A DNA stretch of 64,000 bases from Escherichia coli (GTDB lineage: Bacteria; Pseudomonadota; Gammaproteobacteria; Enterobacterales; Enterobacteriaceae), in the NCBI RefSeq assembly GCF_016026235.1, contig NZ_CP065613.1. One strand, given 5' to 3'. Positions within the stretch are counted from its first letter, which is position 1, and the number at the start of each line of letters is the position of its first letter. The notes below the pieces were generated by a model. The model was not told the origin of the DNA and ran no database searches. It was given only the letters and a program-made list of their open reading frames with translations. This document shows, one piece after another, positions 15,023 to 38,113 of the stretch. The translations under genes and the position numbers were made by a program.

Positions 15023-15828
15023 AAAAAACAATTGCGCTTGTTTTCGCGGTCAGTCTGGCTGTCTTCGGACTTGTAGGTTGCGATCGCGTTGAACCAGGTA
15101 ATGTGGGTATCAAAGTCAACAAACTGGGCGACGACAAAGGTGTCGGTGAAGTGGTCGGTGTTGGTCGCTACTGGACTGGCTGGAATACTGAAGTTTACAT
15201 TTTCCCGACCTTCAAGCAAATGAAGACCTACGATGAACCGTTCAGTTTCCAGATGAGTGACGGCACAACCATCGGCTATCACATCGGCGTGGCCTACAAA
15301 GTTGATCCATCCAAAGTTACCACGGTGTTTCAGACTTACCGCAAAGGCGTGGATGACATTACCAACACCGACCTGCGCCAGAAGATCGCCGACGCACTCA
15401 ATCGGCTGGCCAGCAAAATGACCACCGACAAATTTATTGACGGCGGCAAGTCTGAACTACTGGATGCCGCACTTAAAGACATTCAGGAAGAGATGACACC
15501 CATCGGCATTCAGGTAATGAGCCTCTCTTATGTAGGTAAACCGGAATACCCTCCAACCGTTATCGACAGCATTAACGCCAAAGTCACGGCAAACCAGAAA
15601 ACCCTGCAGCGCGAACAGGAAGTCAAGCAACGTGAAGCGGAGGCCAACATGCTACGTGCGGAAGCTGCCGGACAGGCTGATGCCATTCGAACAAAAGCCC
15701 AGGCAGAAGCCGATGCCATTCGTTTACGCGGCGAAGCTCTACGCCAGAACCCAGGCGTCATGGAGCTGGAAGCCATCAACAAGTGGAACGGTACACTGCC
15801 GCAATACATGACCAGTGGTGTGAGGTAG
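15019..15828 (+). CDS. SPFH/band-7 (prohibitin-like) lipoprotein; extreme C-terminus replaced by IS600 copy 2
   Basis: Lipoprotein signal MKKTIALVFAVSLAVFGLVGC; SPFH-like body with coiled-coil tail (QREAEANMLRAEAAGQADAIRTKAQAEADAIRLRGEA); IS inserted about 10 codons before predicted natural stop (original frame resumes at 17085 and stops at 17116). Confidence 0.65.
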   Translation: MKKTIALVFAVSLAVFGLVGCDRVEPGNVGIKVNKLGDDKGVGEVVGVGRYWTGWNTEVYIFPTFKQMKTYDEPFSFQMSDGTTIGYHIGVAYKVDPSKVTTVFQTYRKGVDDITNTDLRQKIADALNRLASKMTTDKFIDGGKSELLDAALKDIQEEMTPIGIQVMSLSYVGKPEYPPTVIDSINAKVTANQKTLQREQEVKQREAEANMLRAEAAGQADAIRTKAQAEADAIRLRGEALRQNPGVMELEAINKWNGTLPQYMTSGVR

Positions 15829-15884
15829 CCTGAGTTTAACGGACACTCCTTCCTGAAATAGAATGGCATCAGAAGGAGCTAATA

Positions 15885-16187
15885 ATGAGCAGAAAAACCC
15901 AACGTTACTCTAAAGAGTTCAAAGCCGAAGCTGTCAGAACGGTTCTTGAAAATCAACTTTCGATCAGTGAAGGCGCTTCCCGATTATCTCTTCCTGAAGG
16001 CACTTTAGGACAATGGGTTACCGCCGCCAGAAAAGGGCTCGGTACTCCTGGTTCCCGCACGGTGGCTGAACTGGAATCTGAAATTCTGCAACTGCGTAAG
16101 GCGTTAAATGAAGCTCGCCTTGAGCGAGATATATTAAAAAAAGCAACAGCGTATTTTGCACAGGAGTCGCTGAAAAATACGCGTTAA
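15885..16187 (+). CDS. IS600 OrfA
   Basis: 100-aa ORF, differs from copy 1 at residue 5 (T vs N). Confidence 0.85.
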   Translation: MSRKTQRYSKEFKAEAVRTVLENQLSISEGASRLSLPEGTLGQWVTAARKGLGTPGSRTVAELESEILQLRKALNEARLERDILKKATAYFAQESLKNTR

Positions 16188-16222
16188 TCGAACAATGGCG
16201 ACAACAATTTCCCATTGAAGCG

Positions 16223-17041
16223 ATGTGTCAGGTATTTGGTGTATCCAGGAGCGGTTATTACAACTGGGTACAGCATGAACCCTCAGACAGAAAACAAAGT
16301 GATGAGCGGCTAAAACTGGAGATTAAGGTGGCACATATCCGCACTCGCGAAACATATGGAACCCGGCGGCTCCAGACGGAGCTGGCAGAGAATGGCATCA
16401 TCGTTGGTCGTGACCGACTGGCACGTCTTCGTAAGGAGCTAAGGCTACGCTGTAAGCAGAAACGCAAGTTCAGAGCGACTACGAACCCGAACCACAATCT
16501 GCCAGTTGCGCCAAATCTGCTGAACCAGACGTTCGCTCCTACAGCACCAAATCAGGTCTGGGTGGCGGACCTGACGTATGTTGCCACACAGGAGGGATGG
16601 TTGTACCTCGCTGGCATCAAAGATGTTTATACGTGCGAAATTGTCGGCTACGCCATGGGAGAGCGCATGACAAAAGAGCTGACAGGTAAAGCCCTGTTTA
16701 TGGCGCTCAGGAGCCAGCGCCCACCTGCCGGGCTAATCCACCACTCTGATCGAGGTTCACAGTACTGCGCATACGATTACCGGGTCATACAGGAGCAGTC
16801 TGGTCTGAAAACATCAATGTCGCGTAAAGGTAACTGTTACGACAACGCTCCGATGGAAAGCTTCTGGGGAACGCTGAAAAATGAGAGCCTGAGCCACTAT
16901 CGTTTTAATAACCGGGATGAAGCCATCTCAGTAATACGGGAATACATTGAGATTTTCTACAATCGTCAGCGTCGTCACTCTCGTCTGGGGAATATCTCCC
17001 CGGCAGCCTTCAGGGAAAAATATCATCAGATGGCTGCTTAA
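16223..17041 (+). CDS. IS600 OrfB
   Basis: 272-aa DDE transposase component, identical to copy 1. Confidence 0.85.
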   Translation: MCQVFGVSRSGYYNWVQHEPSDRKQSDERLKLEIKVAHIRTRETYGTRRLQTELAENGIIVGRDRLARLRKELRLRCKQKRKFRATTNPNHNLPVAPNLLNQTFAPTAPNQVWVADLTYVATQEGWLYLAGIKDVYTCEIVGYAMGERMTKELTGKALFMALRSQRPPAGLIHHSDRGSQYCAYDYRVIQEQSGLKTSMSRKGNCYDNAPMESFWGTLKNESLSHYRFNNRDEAISVIREYIEIFYNRQRRHSRLGNISPAAFREKYHQMAA

Positions 17042-17150
17042 AAAAAGAACAAATGGTAGTGTCCGCTATTGCCAGTACACCTCAGTGCCAATACACCATT
17101 TATCCAGATTAAATAACTTATATGCCCGGCAGGCCGCCGGGCTAAGGGAA

Positions 17151-34420: not shown

Positions 34421-35561
34421 GGGTCGGTTTCTCGTTAATAAAATCCAGGGCTTCCGGCACCGGAAGATGAGTAGGTTGTACAGGGCGCTGTCCACCAGCC
34501 AGACGCCAGCGTTTCAGTTGCCAGACCTAGGCCAGCACTTCCGCCACCGCGGCGTACAGTTGACCCGGGATTTGTTGACCAATCTCCGCATGTCGATACA
34601 GCGCTCGCGCCAGCGGCGGCGCTTCAAGCGTCGGGACGTTATTTTCAGCGCCAATTTCACGAATGCGCAGCGCGACCAGCCCTGCACCTTTAGCGACCAC
34701 TTTCGGTGCGCTCATTTTGTTTTCGTCATACTGCAACGCTACCGAATAGTGGGTCGGGTTATTGACAATGACATCCGCTTTCGGCACATCGGCCATCATC
34801 CGACGCCGTGCAGCCGCTCGCTGCATCTGACGGATCCGCCCTTTAACATGGGGGTCGCCTTCGCTTTGTTTGAACTCATCACGAATATCCTGCCGCGACA
34901 TACGCAGCTTTTTCAGGTGGCTGAAGATTTGGAAAAAGACGTCAAATCCCACCATTGGAATGACACCAAGCACCACCAGCAGTGCGCATAGCCCTACCAG
35001 ATCCATCGCATTACCCATGGCGGTAATCGGAGACTCGGCCATTAAGCGCATCATCTGCGGCCAGTGATGCCAGAGAAAAAACCCCGTCACGCTGCCAACC
35101 AGGATGGTTTTCAAAATTGCTTTAAGTAACTCCGCGCCAGTCTGTGCCGAGAACATCCGTTTAATGCCCGGTAGCGGGTTGAGTTTGGAAAACTTCGGCT
35201 GCAAGGATTTGCCGCTAAATACCAGCCCTCCCAGCATGACCGGAGAAATGAGCGCCACCAGCACCACGCAGCTAATCAGCGGTAGCAGCGCCAGCATGGC
35301 TTCTCTGATCAGCAGAATAAACTGCCCGAGGATCAGATTCGGGTCATTGATAATACTGTGATCAAAATGCAGCCCAGCGGAGAGCATGCCCGACAATCGA
35401 CGGGCCAGGGACACACCGCCAAACCAGATAACACACACGCCCACCAGCAAAATCAGCAGTGAAGTCAGTTCACGGGAACGTGGGATTTGCCCCTCTTCCC
35501 GCGCTTTTTCTAGTCGGTGAGGTGTGGGGGCTTCTGTTTTGTCGTCGCTCTCGTCAGACAC
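34413..35561 (-). pseudogene. flhB: Flagellar export switch protein FlhB with premature amber codon (truncated about 38 codons before natural stop)
   Basis: ORF stops at TAG (34527-34529, inside CCTAGG) after ...LYAAVAEVLA; same frame continues VWQLKRWRLAGGQR...DFINEKPTHE to TAA at 34413-34415, which overlaps the flhA start as in intact operons. Confidence 0.8.
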
Positions 35562-35711
35562 GTCGCCAATCCTGGAAAGAGTATTAAGCGTAAATGATGC
35601 CAGAGCGCAAAGCGTTCAATGGTTTGAGTAAGGGGCAAAACCGGCGGGATTTAGGACGTTTATGCAAAAATAGGTTCAGTTGCAGAACGTTTTGCGAACC
35701 ATTTTCCAGTT

Positions 35712-35740
35712 CTGATATTTAGCCATTTAGCCTATAGAAT
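35712..35740 (+). promoter_or_regulatory. Candidate sigma70 promoter for the inserted dGTPase-NTase operon
   Basis: CTGATA (35712-35717), 17-nt spacer, TAGAAT (35735-35740); RBS AAAGGTGA before ATG at 35797. Confidence 0.35.
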
Positions 35741-35796
35741 CGCCCACCGCCTCTCTGTTAGTTTGCTAATAATTAAATTATTACAAAGGTGATCAA

Positions 35797-37305
35797 ATGG
35801 AATGGCAACAATTGCTTAACTGCAACCGTCGGAAAGATAATCTAAAAAAAACCAACATAGCATTTTTACATCCCCTTGCTAGCGGAAGACAAGAGATCGA
35901 ACGGGATTACGACCGATTACTTTTTGCTGCGCCAACTCGTCGCCTTGCGGATAAAACACAAGTTTTCCCGTTAGATCAAAATGACAGCATACGGACGAGA
36001 CTGACTCATTCTCACGAAGTAGCAAACTTTGCTCGCGGAATAGGAATGAGACTCGCTTTCGAGATGAAGGAGCACATCTTTGGCGAAATACCCACGGGGA
36101 TTGTCGTTGAACGCGACGTTCCTGCTCTGTTAGCAGCGATCGGACTGGCACACGATCTCGGTAATCCACCATTTGGGCATCAAGGTGAAGCAGCGATGCG
36201 CGCATGGTTTAATAAAAATCTTCCAGGTCTTCTTGATAAAGAAGTAAACAGCGAAATATATAACGACTTTCTGCAATTTGATGGAAACTCACAAACCCTG
36301 CGCCTGGTTACCAAATTACAAATTATTAACGATAACTTTGGTCTGAATTTGACCTATGCCACGCTGGCTGCACTGATCAAATATCCCCGAGCTTCATATT
36401 CATCGGACAAACATTGGAAAAAGCACGGTTTTTTCTATTCTGAGCATGAGGTTGTCATGGATGTCTGGCAGCAAACGGGCCTTGGCGTACCAGGTAATGA
36501 TGCCGGTTGCCGCCACCCATTTACCTGGATAATGGAAGCTTGCGACGATATTGCCTACTCTGTGCTTGACGCAGAAGATACCATCAAGAAAGGATTTGCC
36601 TCATACCAGGATTTGCGTGATTTTTTGATGTCACAATCCGGGGCGAACGATGTAATTGAAAATGTTATTAAAGCTGTAGAGGCCAAAAATGACGCCTGGA
36701 AAGAGCAAAGAAATGCACTTTCACCGGCAGAAATTAATGAACTCAGTATGCAAATGTTCAGAGTGTATGCCACCAGTGCATTGATTAATGCCGTAGTAGA
36801 AGCCTTTCGCGAACAATTACCCACGCTGATGCAGCGTGACTGCCCGTTCAAAGATTTAATCTCGCAAAGCAAAGGTCACGCCCTCTGCACTGCCCTGAAA
36901 ATGTTCGACCGAACACGAGGCTACCTTCATCGTTCAGTCTTGCAACTGGAACTTAGGGGGTCTAATTACATTACTAACTTGATGGATATGCTCTGGATTG
37001 GCATCCATGGACACAAAACAAAGAAAGAACGAGACGGAGAACGCGAGTCCGCGTCTGCAGATAACCTTTTTGTTTCTCGTGAAGAATACCTGTCGGATAC
37101 TCCCTTTGGTCGCTATGCTTACGGGACAATATCTGAAAATTATCGCCGTGTGTTTGAAGATCCCGCCAATACACTCCCTGTTCTTTATAAAGAAGCGCAG
37201 TTGCTTACCGACGCAATCTCAGGCATGACGGATAGTTATTTAATGCGCCTTCACGATGAGCTAAAATCACTGTATGAATGTGGTCTCAAACACCCAACAG
37301 CTTGA
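35797..37305 (+). CDS. Dgt-family deoxyguanosinetriphosphate triphosphohydrolase-like protein (HD domain), divergent paralog
   Basis: 502-aa ORF with Dgt signature blocks KTQVFPL, RTRLTHSHEV, AHDLGNPPFGHQGE, FDGNSQ, HPFTWIMEACDDIAYSVLDAEDTIKKG, LLTDAISGMTDSY; lies between flhB and cheZ on the opposite strand. Confidence 0.85.
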   Translation: MEWQQLLNCNRRKDNLKKTNIAFLHPLASGRQEIERDYDRLLFAAPTRRLADKTQVFPLDQNDSIRTRLTHSHEVANFARGIGMRLAFEMKEHIFGEIPTGIVVERDVPALLAAIGLAHDLGNPPFGHQGEAAMRAWFNKNLPGLLDKEVNSEIYNDFLQFDGNSQTLRLVTKLQIINDNFGLNLTYATLAALIKYPRASYSSDKHWKKHGFFYSEHEVVMDVWQQTGLGVPGNDAGCRHPFTWIMEACDDIAYSVLDAEDTIKKGFASYQDLRDFLMSQSGANDVIENVIKAVEAKNDAWKEQRNALSPAEINELSMQMFRVYATSALINAVVEAFREQLPTLMQRDCPFKDLISQSKGHALCTALKMFDRTRGYLHRSVLQLELRGSNYITNLMDMLWIGIHGHKTKKERDGERESASADNLFVSREEYLSDTPFGRYAYGTISENYRRVFEDPANTLPVLYKEAQLLTDAISGMTDSYLMRLHDELKSLYECGLKHPTA

Positions 37306-38026
37306 ACAGCGTATCGCCGATTTTTTTACGCTTAGTGATGAGCATAAGAAAGCCAGAGTATTACTTGATACTCTGGCCTGTTCCTGTCCGGCCTGGATTT
37401 TTGGCGGGATGGTGCGTGACTTAGGCTTGTTTGGCGTCGAAGGATTCTCTTCAGACCTTGATATCGTCATCGGTCGCTCGCGTGAGGAACTCTTCCAGAC
37501 ATTGGCTGAACTGCCCGTCAAACAACTGCGTTTTAATAAGTTTGGTGGGATCCGTTTTCGTTATCACGACTTCGAATTTGATATCTGGAACCTCAATGAG
37601 ACATGGGCATTTCGGGAAAAACTTATATTTTGTGAGGATGAATCAAGTCTGTTAAACACTACGCTAATGAGTTGGGATGCCGTGCTCTATGATCTACGTA
37701 GTGAAAAAATTATCAGTAAAGATAATTATTTGACCGATTTAAATCGCAGACATCTTGAACTTGTTCTTCATACTAACCCCAATCCAAGCGGTTCGGTAAC
37801 GAAGATTTTACGCACTATTTTTACTAAGCAGGTAAAGAGTTTAGGGCCGGAACTCTGTCATTTCTTGCACCATGAACTGACGAAAAAACGTTATGAAGTA
37901 TGGCATCACTACGATGTACTGCACTACCAATCATCGTCATTTTCTCGTTCACAATTTAATGCATTGATAAATTTACTGGCGCAACAATCACGCTTCGCTG
38001 ATCTAAAATTATCAAACTACAAATAA
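37274..38026 (+). CDS. Pol-beta superfamily nucleotidyltransferase (CCA-adding/poly(A) polymerase head-domain-like), 250 aa
   Basis: Motif WIFGGMVRDLGLFGVEGFSSDLDIVIG matches GGxVRD...DxD head-domain signature of CCA-adding enzymes; start overlaps 3' end of dGTPase gene by 32 nt. Confidence 0.7.
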   Translation: MNVVSNTQQLEQRIADFFTLSDEHKKARVLLDTLACSCPAWIFGGMVRDLGLFGVEGFSSDLDIVIGRSREELFQTLAELPVKQLRFNKFGGIRFRYHDFEFDIWNLNETWAFREKLIFCEDESSLLNTTLMSWDAVLYDLRSEKIISKDNYLTDLNRRHLELVLHTNPNPSGSVTKILRTIFTKQVKSLGPELCHFLHHELTKKRYEVWHHYDVLHYQSSSFSRSQFNALINLLAQQSRFADLKLSNYK

Positions 38027-38113
38027 CCATCCTCCACGTACTCCCTGAACGAAACCCGCCACCCTGCTATCGGCCTGGCATCATCGCGCAGGCCGAAGTT
38101 CAGGCAATACAAA

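What the first reader, a model, noticed from the sequence alone, without database searches (positions are those of the whole stretch)
35562..38113. Non-core insertion between flhB and cheZ: divergent dGTPase plus nucleotidyltransferase operon on the opposite strand
In the conserved enterobacterial order, cheZ is followed directly by the flhBAE operon. Here about 2.5 kb sits between them, carries its own promoter-like hexamers and RBS, is transcribed against both flanking operons, and looks AT-richer than the flanks. It encodes a full-length but highly diverged Dgt-family HD triphosphohydrolase overlapping a small Pol-beta/CCA-head nucleotidyltransferase. Stand-alone Dgt-like dGTPases are known anti-phage effectors that deplete dGTP; coupling to a CCA-head-type NTase is not an arrangement I recognise. 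It could be a two-component nucleotide-depletion or nucleotide-signalling defence module.
Basis: partly seen in the sequence, partly recalled or inferred. Interest (0 to 1): 0.85.

Follow-up and report, generated by a model that had tools for sequence, protein, structure and literature searches.

The report
Clover anti-phage system (CloA dGTPase + CloB)
The 2.4 kb between flhB and cheZ is an intact copy of the recently described Clover anti-phage system, so it is a real accessory defence locus but an untested member of a known kind rather than a new one.

Summary
Two overlapping + strand ORFs (35797-37305, 502 aa; 37274-38026, 250 aa) lie in a 2444 bp AT-richer segment (35656-38099). This segment replaces 93 bp of the K-12-type flhB-cheZ spacer and is present in 106 of 5426 complete E. 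coli genomes.

ORF1 is 65% identical (E 2.8e-189) to Salmonella CloA, the dGTPase of the Clover system (PDB 9p8s-9p8v; Yamaguchi et al., bioRxiv 2025). It keeps 6/6 catalytic residues, 9/9 dTTP-activator-pocket residues and 9/10 p3diT-inhibitor-pocket residues. ORF2 is 35% identical (E 1e-54) to the tested E. coli H5 CloB and keeps the catalytic D61/D63/D103. Its model has a class II CCA-adding-enzyme fold.

The inferred mechanism is that CloB makes p3diT, which holds CloA off, and a phage-driven rise in dTTP activates CloA to deplete dGTP.

What is new here is modest. This lineage is diverged from both tested systems. It is not in a defence island or mobile element. It sits at or beside the flhB-cheZ site in all six relatives whose loci were read; three are named Enterobacter, Cronobacter and Pseudescherichia, and the rest are unnamed.

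Novelty: new member of a known kind. Interest: low to moderate.

The parts
35656..38099 (.). Accessory segment (2444 bp) carrying cloAB. It replaces a 93 bp REP-like stretch of the K-12-type flhB-cheZ spacer. No flanking direct or inverted repeats and no integrase.
   Evidence: BLAST of the HB101 spacer against the window; annotation of HB101 and SMS-3-5; repeat search; GC 0.39-0.47 against 0.52-0.57 in the flanks; 106 of 5426 E. coli genomes.
35797..37305 (+). cloA: HD-domain dGTP triphosphohydrolase effector (502 aa). Metal ligands are H71, H119, D120, D250 and the catalytic dyad is H128/E131. It has a 20-aa charged loop insertion (residues 414-433) relative to the solved Salmonella CloA.
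   Evidence: PDB 9p8s-9p8v (Salmonella CloA) E 2.8e-189; 65.5% identity to Salmonella CloA; 59% (BLASTP) or 63% (MAFFT) to E. coli H5 CloA; all catalytic residues, 9/9 dTTP-site and 9/10 p3diT-site residues conserved; PADLOC dGTPase 1.1e-70 and TIGR01353 284.7 bits; dN/dS 0.19 against the SMS-3-5 allele.
37274..38026 (+). cloB: small Pol-beta-superfamily nucleotidyltransferase (250 aa). It has the G44-G45 motif and the catalytic acids D61, D63, D103. By homology it is the synthase of the inhibitory signal p3diT.
   Evidence: 35% identity, E 1e-54, to the experimentally tested E. coli H5 CloB, with D61/D63 aligning to its D71/D73; invariant G44 G45 D61 D63 D103 across 40 homologues; AF2 pLDDT 92.2; Foldseek best hits are class II CCA-adding enzymes, E 5e-9; dN/dS 0.02 against SMS-3-5; an HD-protein gene lies immediately upstream wherever upstream DNA was recovered.
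35786..35791 (+). Shine-Dalgarno AAGGTG, 5 nt upstream of the cloA ATG.
   Evidence: Read directly from the sequence.
35712..35740 (+). Promoter-like hexamers CTGATA-17-TAGAAT upstream of cloA. This is a candidate only.
   Evidence: Consensus scan, 9/12 matches; the number of such sites in the region is below the shuffle expectation.
35618..35660 (.). Context, not part of Clover: an FlhDC-box-like inverted pair belonging to the divergent flhBAE class 2 promoter. The left junction of the insert (35655/35656) falls in its distal half-site.
   Evidence: Half-site scan using a consensus recalled from memory; the same pair is present in HB101; the K-12 FlhDC ChIP peak lies about 54 bp upstream of flhB (PMC4183435, using an flhB coordinate recalled from memory). 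The motif is degenerate, so this is inference.
38038..38110 (.). Stable stem-loop in the 87 nt spacer between the convergent cloB and cheZ genes. The core hairpin is about 38070-38096. There is no T-run. It may act as a transcript-end or insulating structure.
   Evidence: RNA fold gives -28.6 kcal/mol, z = -4.6, with 0 of 200 shuffles folding as well. No canonical terminator was found there.

Best explanation
The segment is a two-gene Clover anti-phage system.

**Components.** cloA encodes an HD-domain dGTPase effector. cloB encodes a small Pol-beta-type nucleotidyltransferase.

**Mechanism, by homology with the characterised Salmonella and E. coli H5 systems.**
- In uninfected cells CloB condenses dTTP into p3diT (5'-triphosphothymidyl-3'5'-thymidine).
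- p3diT binds a pocket at the CloA dimer interface and keeps the enzyme off.
- Phages that inflate the dNTP pool, such as T5-like phages through their Dmp and NrdAB enzymes, raise dTTP.
- dTTP binds an adjacent, mutually exclusive pocket and completes the active site.
- CloA then hydrolyses dGTP and starves phage DNA replication.
- Loss of CloB activity should be toxic.

**What is shown here.** Homology, conserved catalytic and ligand-pocket residues, operon architecture, purifying selection and accessory distribution.

**What is inferred.** Enzymatic activities, ligands, octameric assembly and phage range for this particular allele.
For: **CloA.**
- E 2.8e-189 over the full length to the solved Salmonella CloA. 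Identity is 65.5% to Salmonella CloA and about 60% to the tested E. coli H5 CloA (59% by BLASTP; 63% by MAFFT).
- Every residue the paper names for catalysis is conserved: H69, H117, D118, D242, H126, E129 in Salmonella numbering.
- Every named dTTP-binding residue is conserved: R47, D61, Q172, K256, S418, N420, A444, T449, Y452.
- Nine of ten named p3diT-binding residues are conserved, including the base-reading D37, N75 and Q311. The same holds in six other members of this lineage.

**CloB.**
- E 1e-54 to E. coli H5 CloB. Its mutated catalytic D71/D73 aligns to window D61/D63.
- The catalytic triad is invariant in 40 homologues.
- The model has a Pol-beta / class II NTase fold.

**Gene pairing and selection.**
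- cloA-cloB order and overlap match the published operons.
- An HD-protein gene sits directly upstream of the CloB homologue in all 8 look-ups, including a 32%-identical one.
- dN/dS is 0.19 for cloA and 0.02 for cloB against another E. coli allele.

**Published function.** More than 10,000-fold defence against T5-like phages, dTTP activation, p3diT inhibition and CloB-mutant toxicity are reported in PMC12265719.
Against: - This allele and its lineage have not been tested. CloB is only 35% identical to the tested E. coli H5 protein.
- CloA differs from the solved protein at T25->L27 (a p3diT phosphodiester contact), H263->Q271 (pi-stack at the tetramer interface) and Q427->D455 (partner of N175 in the suppressed state).
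- CloA carries a 20-aa charged loop about 12 residues before the S418/N420 dTTP contacts.
- The locus is not in a defence island. Its neighbours are flagellar and chemotaxis genes.
- A functional promoter was not demonstrated.
Confidence: 0.88

Rival explanations
1. A Clover-like system with altered wiring. In this diverged flhB-cheZ lineage, CloB makes a different nucleotide signal, or CloA responds to a different activator or assembles differently from the Salmonella/H5 type.
For: - CloB is 35% identical to the tested E. coli H5 CloB.
- CloA has substitutions T25L, H263Q and Q427D and a variable 0-20 aa charged loop next to the dTTP-contact segment.
- CloB evolves fast within the lineage, at 45-49% identity between genera against 70% for CloA.
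Against: - All base-specific contacts for p3diT (D37, N75, Q311, R314, F41) and for dTTP (R47, D61, T449, Y452) are conserved across the lineage.
- The paper reports that a distant Xanthomonas CloB also makes p3diT.
Confidence: 0.08
2. A stand-alone anti-phage dGTPase of the Tal et al. 2022 type (constitutive or self-regulated dGTP depletion), with an unrelated neighbouring gene.
For: - The PADLOC 2023 library recognises only a single-gene 'dGTPase' here and has no model for ORF2.
- RefSeq names ORF1 dgt and ORF2 'hypothetical protein'.
Against: - NCBIfam anti-phage dGTPase NF041026 scores 183 bits against a cutoff of 400.
- The Shewanella anti-phage dGTPase (9p8w) matches only residues 31-202 at E 2e-24, against E 2.8e-189 for CloA.
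- ORF2 overlaps ORF1, is under strong purifying selection, and sits next to an HD-protein gene in every relative examined.
Confidence: 0.02
3. Housekeeping paralogues: a second Dgt for dNTP-pool homeostasis plus a fragment or paralogue of the CCA-adding enzyme or poly(A) polymerase acting on RNA 3' ends.
For: - The Dgt-family assignment (TIGR01353) passes its cutoff.
- The CloB model's nearest solved folds are CCA-adding enzymes.
Against: - It is present in only 2% of E. coli genomes.
- The housekeeping equivalog NF003429 scores 271 against a cutoff of 405, and E. coli Dgt (4x9e) matches only at E 2e-38.
- pcnB TIGR01942 scores 11.8 bits against a cutoff of 305.
- CloB is 250 aa with 12-18% identity to CCA enzymes of 340-520 aa, so the matches cover only part of those longer chains.
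Confidence: 0.01

Closest known systems
Clover defence system, CloA/CloB of Salmonella enterica SA20044414 and E. coli H5 (Yamaguchi et al., bioRxiv 2025, PMC12265719; PDB 9p8s-9p8v)
   Same: - Same two genes in the same order, with overlapping reading frames.
- CloA is about 60-65% identical over its full length and keeps all catalytic, dGTP-site and dTTP-site residues and 9/10 p3diT-site residues.
- CloB is homologous (E 1e-54) and has the same catalytic aspartates.
   Different: - It is a separate lineage: Salmonella and H5 CloA are 85% identical to each other but 63-65% to this one, and CloB is only 35% identical.
- CloA has a 20-aa charged loop insertion and the substitutions H263Q, Q427D and T25L.
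- The genomic setting differs. The H5 type sits on an integrase island at tRNA-Sec, or next to DarTG and type I R-M genes. This one sits between flhB and cheZ with no mobility genes.
- It has not been tested experimentally.
Stand-alone anti-phage dGTPases (Tal et al. 2022; Shewanella putrefaciens dGTPase, PDB 9p8w; NCBIfam NF041026)
   Same: An HD-domain dGTP triphosphohydrolase that defends by depleting dGTP. The catalytic residues are shared.
   Different: - Those are single-gene systems, hexameric and active without an activator. They defend mainly against T7 rather than T5, according to the paper.
- The sequence match is weak: E 2e-24 over the N-terminal part only, and NF041026 scores 183 against a cutoff of 400.
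E. coli housekeeping Dgt (PDB 4x9e; NCBIfam NF003429)
   Same: Same enzyme superfamily and the same predicted substrate.
   Different: - The match is E 2e-38 in two stretches and below the equivalog cutoff, 271 against 405.
- Dgt is core, whereas this gene is in 2% of genomes and is paired with an NTase.
Class II CCA-adding enzymes and poly(A) polymerase (Pfam PolyA_pol head)
   Same: Nearest solved fold to the CloB model (Foldseek E 5e-9, TM about 0.5-0.6). It shares the GG...DxD...D catalytic architecture.
   Different: - Identity is 12-18%, and the Pfam and NCBIfam matches are not significant.
- CloB is about half the length of these enzymes.
- In Clover it makes a dinucleotide signal rather than extending RNA.
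Other systems held off by an inhibitory nucleotide signal (Hailong HalB oligo-dA; MISS/Panoptes 2'3'-c-di-AMP)
   Same: Same logic: an NTase product holds an effector off (as stated in the paper).
   Different: They use different effectors and different signals. Sequence and fold relations were not tested here.

Membership tests
Clover (CloA/CloB) | CloA is an HD-domain dNTPase with the HD motif, the metal ligands and the HE catalytic dyad. | tested here: met
   H71, H119, D120, D250, H128 and E131 align to Salmonella H69, H117, D118, D242, H126 and E129. They are invariant in 12 CloA sequences.
Clover (CloA/CloB) | Full-length sequence homology of the effector to an experimentally characterised CloA. 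| tested here: met
   PDB 9p8s E 2.8e-189 over residues 1-495. Identity to Salmonella CloA is 65.5%. Identity to E. coli H5 CloA is 59% by BLASTP and 63% by MAFFT.
Clover (CloA/CloB) | Allosteric dTTP activator pocket: R47, D61, Q172, K256, S418, N420, A444, T449, Y452. | tested here: met
   9/9 residues are identical; the residue list comes from the paper. Binding itself was not tested.
Clover (CloA/CloB) | p3diT inhibitor pocket: T25, R29, R34, D37, R38, F41, N75, N181, Q311, R314. | tested here: met
   9/10 residues are identical. T25 is L27 here and varies (L/I/A) across this lineage.
Clover (CloA/CloB) | The partner CloB is a Pol-beta-superfamily NTase with the [D/E]h[D/E]...h[D/E]h active site and is homologous to a characterised CloB. 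| tested here: met
   D61-L-D63 and F-D103-I are invariant in 40 homologues. E 1e-54 and 35% identity to E. coli H5 CloB. The fold is supported.
Clover (CloA/CloB) | Two-gene operon with cloA upstream of cloA's partner cloB, and the pairing conserved among relatives. | tested here: met
   32 nt overlap. An HD-protein gene lies directly upstream of the CloB homologue in 8 of 8 look-ups.
Clover (CloA/CloB) | Octameric four-leaf-clover assembly of CloA. | not testable with these tools
   Only monomer prediction is available, and that model was poor (pLDDT 66). The interface residue H263 is Q271 here.
Clover (CloA/CloB) | Function: dTTP-activated dGTPase, p3diT synthesis by CloB, defence against T5-like phages, and toxicity of the CloB active-site mutant. 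| not testable with these tools
   These need biochemistry and plaque assays. They have been shown only for the Salmonella, E. coli H5 and (product only) Xanthomonas proteins.
Clover (CloA/CloB) | Location in defence islands or on mobile elements. This is typical of the family rather than strictly defining. | tested here: not met
   The neighbours are argS, flhEAB and cheZYBR-tap-tar. There are no flanking repeats or integrase. No enterobacterial plasmid or phage copies were found.
Stand-alone anti-phage dGTPase (NCBIfam NF041026 / NF003701) | Score above the curated cutoff of the anti-phage dGTPase models. | tested here: not met
   183 bits against 400, and 152.9 against 383.
Housekeeping Dgt (NCBIfam NF003429) | Score above the equivalog cutoff, and core-gene distribution. 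| tested here: not met
   271.2 bits against 405. Present in 106 of 5426 genomes.
Class II CCA-adding enzyme / PcnB | Significant match to the PolyA_pol head and pcnB models, and full head-neck-body-tail length. | tested here: not met
   Pfam E 0.066. TIGR01942 scores 11.8 bits against 305.65. CloB is 250 aa against about 340-520 aa for these enzymes; only fold-level similarity was found.

The most novel reading that the evidence does not exclude
The flhB-cheZ Clover lineage is a long-resident, non-mobile chromosomal defence locus of Enterobacteriaceae. Its divergent promoter shares the FlhDC-bound control region of flhBAE. Nucleotide-depletion immunity would then be co-expressed with the flagellar regulon, for example to guard motile cells against phages met in that state.

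**Support.**
- The site is conserved in all six relatives read, including named Enterobacter, Cronobacter and Pseudescherichia.
- The left junction of the insert lies inside the distal FlhDC half-site.
- A second FlhDC-like inverted pair (35661-35703) lies just upstream of the cloA -35 hexamer. There are 5 half-sites against 0.68 expected in shuffles.

**Against.**
- The second pair is not conserved in the other relatives examined.
- The FlhDC motif is degenerate and known to predict binding poorly.
Probability: 0.08. Interest if true: 0.5.

Novelty: new member of a known kind. Interest (0 to 1): 0.3.

Why it matters
**Annotation.**
- RefSeq labels this locus 'dgt' plus 'hypothetical protein', and the 2023 PADLOC models would count it as a single-gene dGTPase. 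Recognising it as Clover corrects the annotation for about 2% of E. coli and for related Enterobacter, Cronobacter and Pseudescherichia genomes.

**A natural variant for experiments.**
- This CloA/CloB pair is diverged (CloB 35% identical) but keeps all ligand-reading residues.
- It is a useful test of whether dTTP sensing and p3diT restraint hold across the family.
- It also allows a test of what the variable charged loop and the H263Q interface change do to assembly.

**Evolution.**
- The fixed, non-mobile position between flagellar and chemotaxis operons in several genera is unusual for a defence system.
- It offers a tractable case for asking how such loci are kept or lost without mobile-element turnover.

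None of this opens a new class of biology.

Tried and rejected
- **Sequence-only identification of ORF2 failed.** Pfam PolyA_pol gave E 0.066, NCBIfam only pcnB at 11.8 bits, PADLOC no hit, and the PDB sequence search no hit at E <= 1. Identification came from the literature search, pairwise comparison with E. coli H5 CloB and structure prediction.
- **The CloA structure model was not used.** AF2 on a 10-sequence alignment gave mean pLDDT 65.9. It was not used for fold search or to place the 20-aa insertion.
- **Two sources were unavailable.** The paper's Supplementary Table 1 (list of CloB homologues) is not held, so I could not check whether this exact protein is already listed. Nicastro et al. 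2023 (PMC10681802), the earlier bioinformatic mention, is not held either.
- **No mobile-element signature.** There are no flanking direct or inverted repeats and no integrase or transposase next to the insert.
- **Expression signals are unproven.** Promoter-like sites do not exceed chance, and there is no canonical terminator after cloB. A strong hairpin without a T-run does exist there.
- **FlhDC regulation of cloA remains a lead only.** A second FlhDC-like box is present in E. coli but is not conserved in Enterobacter, Cronobacter, L014, L017 or L019.
- **The inter-genus intergenic DNA alignment was too diverged to interpret**.
- **The costly genome contigs and metagenome scans were not run.** The main conclusion did not depend on them.
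Full report
**1. The observation**

- The interval 35562-38113 is the whole spacer between the flhB start (GTG, - strand, 35561) and the cheZ stop (- strand, 38114).
- It holds two + strand ORFs, 35797-37305 (502 aa) and 37274-38026 (250 aa), overlapping by 32 nt.
- GC falls to 0.39-0.47 inside, against 0.52-0.57 in the flanking flagellar and chemotaxis genes.
- In a K-12-type genome (HB101) the same spacer is 201 bp.
- Homology to it ends at window 35655 and resumes at 38100. So 2444 bp (35656-38099) replace a 93 bp REP-like stretch.
- No direct or inverted repeats flank the segment, and no integrase or transposase adjoins it.
- An AAGGTG Shine-Dalgarno lies 5 nt before the first ATG.
- One promoter-like hexamer pair lies at 35712-35740, but such sites are not enriched over shuffles.
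- The 87 nt between cloB and the convergent cheZ fold into a strong stem-loop without a T-run: -28.6 kcal/mol, z = -4.6.

**2. Distribution in E. coli**

- Of 5426 complete E. coli genomes, 5386 carry the flanks and 106 carry the insert. It is always chromosomal and always at this site.
- RefSeq annotates the genes as 'dgt: dGTP triphosphohydrolase' and 'hypothetical protein', for example WP_012311981.1 and WP_001103661.1 in SMS-3-5.
- Against the SMS-3-5 allele, dS is 0.04 for cloA and 0.08 for cloB. That is in the range of the flanking genes (0.04-0.12).
- dN/dS is 0.19 for cloA and 0.02 for cloB, although the counts are small.
- Both genes are therefore intact and under purifying selection.

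**3. What the proteins are**

*ORF1*
- It passes the dGTP triphosphohydrolase subfamily model (TIGR01353, 284.7 bits against a cutoff of 152).
- It fails the housekeeping Dgt equivalog (271 against 405) and the anti-phage dGTPase models (183 against 400).
- PADLOC 2023 calls it 'dGTPase' at 1.1e-70 and has no model for ORF2.

*ORF2*
- It has no significant sequence-family hit. Pfam PolyA_pol gives E 0.066 and the PDB sequence search finds nothing.

*The link to Clover*
- A full-text search for dGTPase + nucleotidyltransferase + anti-phage returned the Clover preprint (Yamaguchi et al., bioRxiv, July 2025, PMC12265719).
- ORF1 matches the deposited Salmonella CloA structures (9p8s-9p8v) at E 2.8e-189 over residues 1-495.
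- E. coli H5, the second strain tested in that paper, is in the genome collection.
- Its CloA/CloB pair lies on an integrase island at tRNA-Sec.
- Window CloA is 59% identical to H5 CloA by BLASTP.
- Window CloB is 35% identical to H5 CloB at E 1e-54. Window D61/D63 align with the D71/D73 that the authors mutated.

**4. Residue-level membership test**

I mapped the residues named in the paper onto a three-way alignment.
- All six catalytic residues are identical: H69, H117, D118, D242 and the dyad H126/E129.
- All eight dGTP-contact positions examined are identical.
- All nine dTTP-activator contacts are identical.
- Nine of ten p3diT-inhibitor contacts are identical, including the base-reading D37, N75 and Q311.

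The differences are:
- T25->L27.
- H263->Q271, a tetramer-interface pi-stack.
- Q427->D455, the partner of N175 in the suppressed state.
- A 20-aa charged insertion (residues 414-433) about 12 residues before S418/N420.

The same pattern holds in six other CloA proteins of this lineage, where the loop varies from 0 to 20 extra residues.

For CloB:
- In a 40-sequence alignment, G44, G45, D61, D63 and D103 are invariant.
- The AF2 model is confident: pLDDT 92.2, pTM 0.88.
- Its nearest solved folds are class II CCA-adding and A-adding enzymes: E 5e-9, TM 0.5-0.6, 12-18% identity.
- A profile of CloB finds 1062 clusters (at 50% identity) with E <= 1e-10 among 1.84 billion representatives. That size is in keeping with the '>650 systems' the paper reports.

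**5. Mechanism**

*Shown in the paper for the Salmonella and E. coli H5 systems*:
- Defence of more than 10,000-fold against T5-like phages requires the CloA HD motif.
- CloA alone is inactive in vitro. It is switched on specifically by dTTP (EC50 about 15 uM) and hydrolyses only dGTP.
- Phage escape mutations map to the T5 Dmp and NrdAB enzymes, which inflate dNTP pools.
- CloB makes p3diT, which binds the CloA dimer interface (IC50 about 7.6 uM) and raises the dTTP threshold.
- Inactivating CloB is highly toxic.

*Inferred for the window locus:* the same cycle. The basis is homology and the complete conservation of the ligand-reading residues. None of it has been measured for this allele.

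**6. How this lineage differs**

- Salmonella and H5 CloA are 85% identical to each other but only 63-65% identical to the window protein. The window therefore represents a separate lineage.
- Its CloB relatives at 45-73% identity all sit immediately next to cheZ. Usually they lie between flhB and cheZ, with the same divergent/convergent orientation.
  - Named examples are Enterobacter cancerogenus, Cronobacter dublinensis and Pseudescherichia.
  - Three further relatives come from unnamed assemblies. In one of them an AraC-family regulator, not flhB, lies upstream.
- By contrast, the H5 type lies in mobile defence islands. These are the tRNA-Sec integrase island in H5 and a position next to DarTG and type I R-M genes in Atlantibacter.
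- Between genera, CloA is about 70% identical and CloB 45-49%. The corresponding figures are 74-85% for FlhB, 85-88% for CheZ and 90-95% for FlhA.
- The Clover distances are star-like rather than following the flank distances. I cannot tell ancient residency with loss from allele exchange through flank recombination.
- CloB relatives are absent from the phage collection. On plasmids they occur only in Phaeobacter and Bacillus.

**7. A lead that stays a lead**

- The left junction lies 94 bp upstream of the flhB start.
- I scanned with the FlhDC half-site consensus, which I recalled from memory. An inverted pair lies at 35618-35660, present in HB101 as well.
- In K-12 the FlhDC ChIP peak lies about 54 bp upstream of flhB. 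That distance uses the peak coordinate in PMC4183435 and an flhB start coordinate recalled from memory.
- A second pair lies inside the insert at 35661-35703, just upstream of the cloA -35-like hexamer.
- There are 5 half-sites against 0.68 expected in shuffles, a count reached by 1 of 300 shuffles.
- The second pair is not conserved in the other genera.
- Co-regulation of this Clover lineage with flagellar class 2 genes is therefore only a low-probability hypothesis.

**8. Verdict**

- The arrangement was published in 2025 as Clover, with structures and mechanism.
- This locus passes every sequence-testable membership criterion. It fails only the non-defining 'defence island' context. The oligomeric state and the biochemical criteria cannot be tested here.
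- I classify it as a new, untested member of a known kind.
- It has modest added interest from its fixed non-mobile position near the flagellar regulon in several genera, and from its divergence from the tested systems.
- Interest is 0.3.

Noticed in passing
window 34527-35561 (- strand): flhB carries an in-frame stop at codon 345 (W345* relative to the 382-aa FlhB of SMS-3-5). This removes the last 38 residues. The closely related FDAARGOS_943 record annotates a full-length flhB.
   Followed up: partly
window ~48236-49529, with ORFs 48268-49035 (+) and 49470-50159 (-): An IS4-family element of about 1.3 kb interrupts motA. The ORF on its far side encodes only MotA residues ~1-210. With the flhB nonsense codon, this suggests a non-motile, Shigella/EIEC-like strain in which cloAB stays intact while the surrounding flagellar genes decay.
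   Followed up: partly
window 4753-6017, 15817-17085, 19408-20677: Three near-identical IS3-family (IS600-like) copies. The window is 99.9% collinear with E. coli FDAARGOS_943 from about 20.7 kb onward but differs from it in IS content and arrangement. That record annotates a degraded lambdoid prophage with integrase and IS1 insertions in araF and ftnB in the equivalent region.
   Followed up: partly
L002:3353-7535 (E. coli H5) and L007/L008:80-4259 (Atlantibacter): The H5-type Clover travels with the same six-gene cluster in two genera. The cluster is: small hypothetical, PfkB kinase fused to nucleoside 2-deoxyribosyltransferase, QueC, hypothetical, Ogg-type glycosylase, Dam-like methyltransferase. 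PADLOC recognises only QueC and the methyltransferase. It may be an undescribed 7-deazaguanine-related modification or defence module.
   Followed up: partly
P0010 (Shigella flexneri, 160 aa): A partial CloB, 91% identical over 55% of the query, is recorded from Shigella flexneri. This suggests the locus is truncated in some Shigella.
   Followed up: no
window 35684-35710 and 35755-35768, aligned with L004 and L012: Short blocks upstream of cloA (about GTTGCGnAC...TTTTCCAnTT and TCTGGTAGTTT) are partly conserved between E. coli, Enterobacter and Cronobacter, although the intergenic DNA is otherwise diverged. They may be promoter or operator elements of cloAB.
   Followed up: no
window 31321-31830 (+): A low-GC (0.39) ORF lies between argS and flhE. 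RefSeq annotates it as an LprI-family lysozyme inhibitor, and it weakly matches the UmoC flagellar biogenesis regulator family (35 bits, below the cutoff of 120).
   Followed up: no
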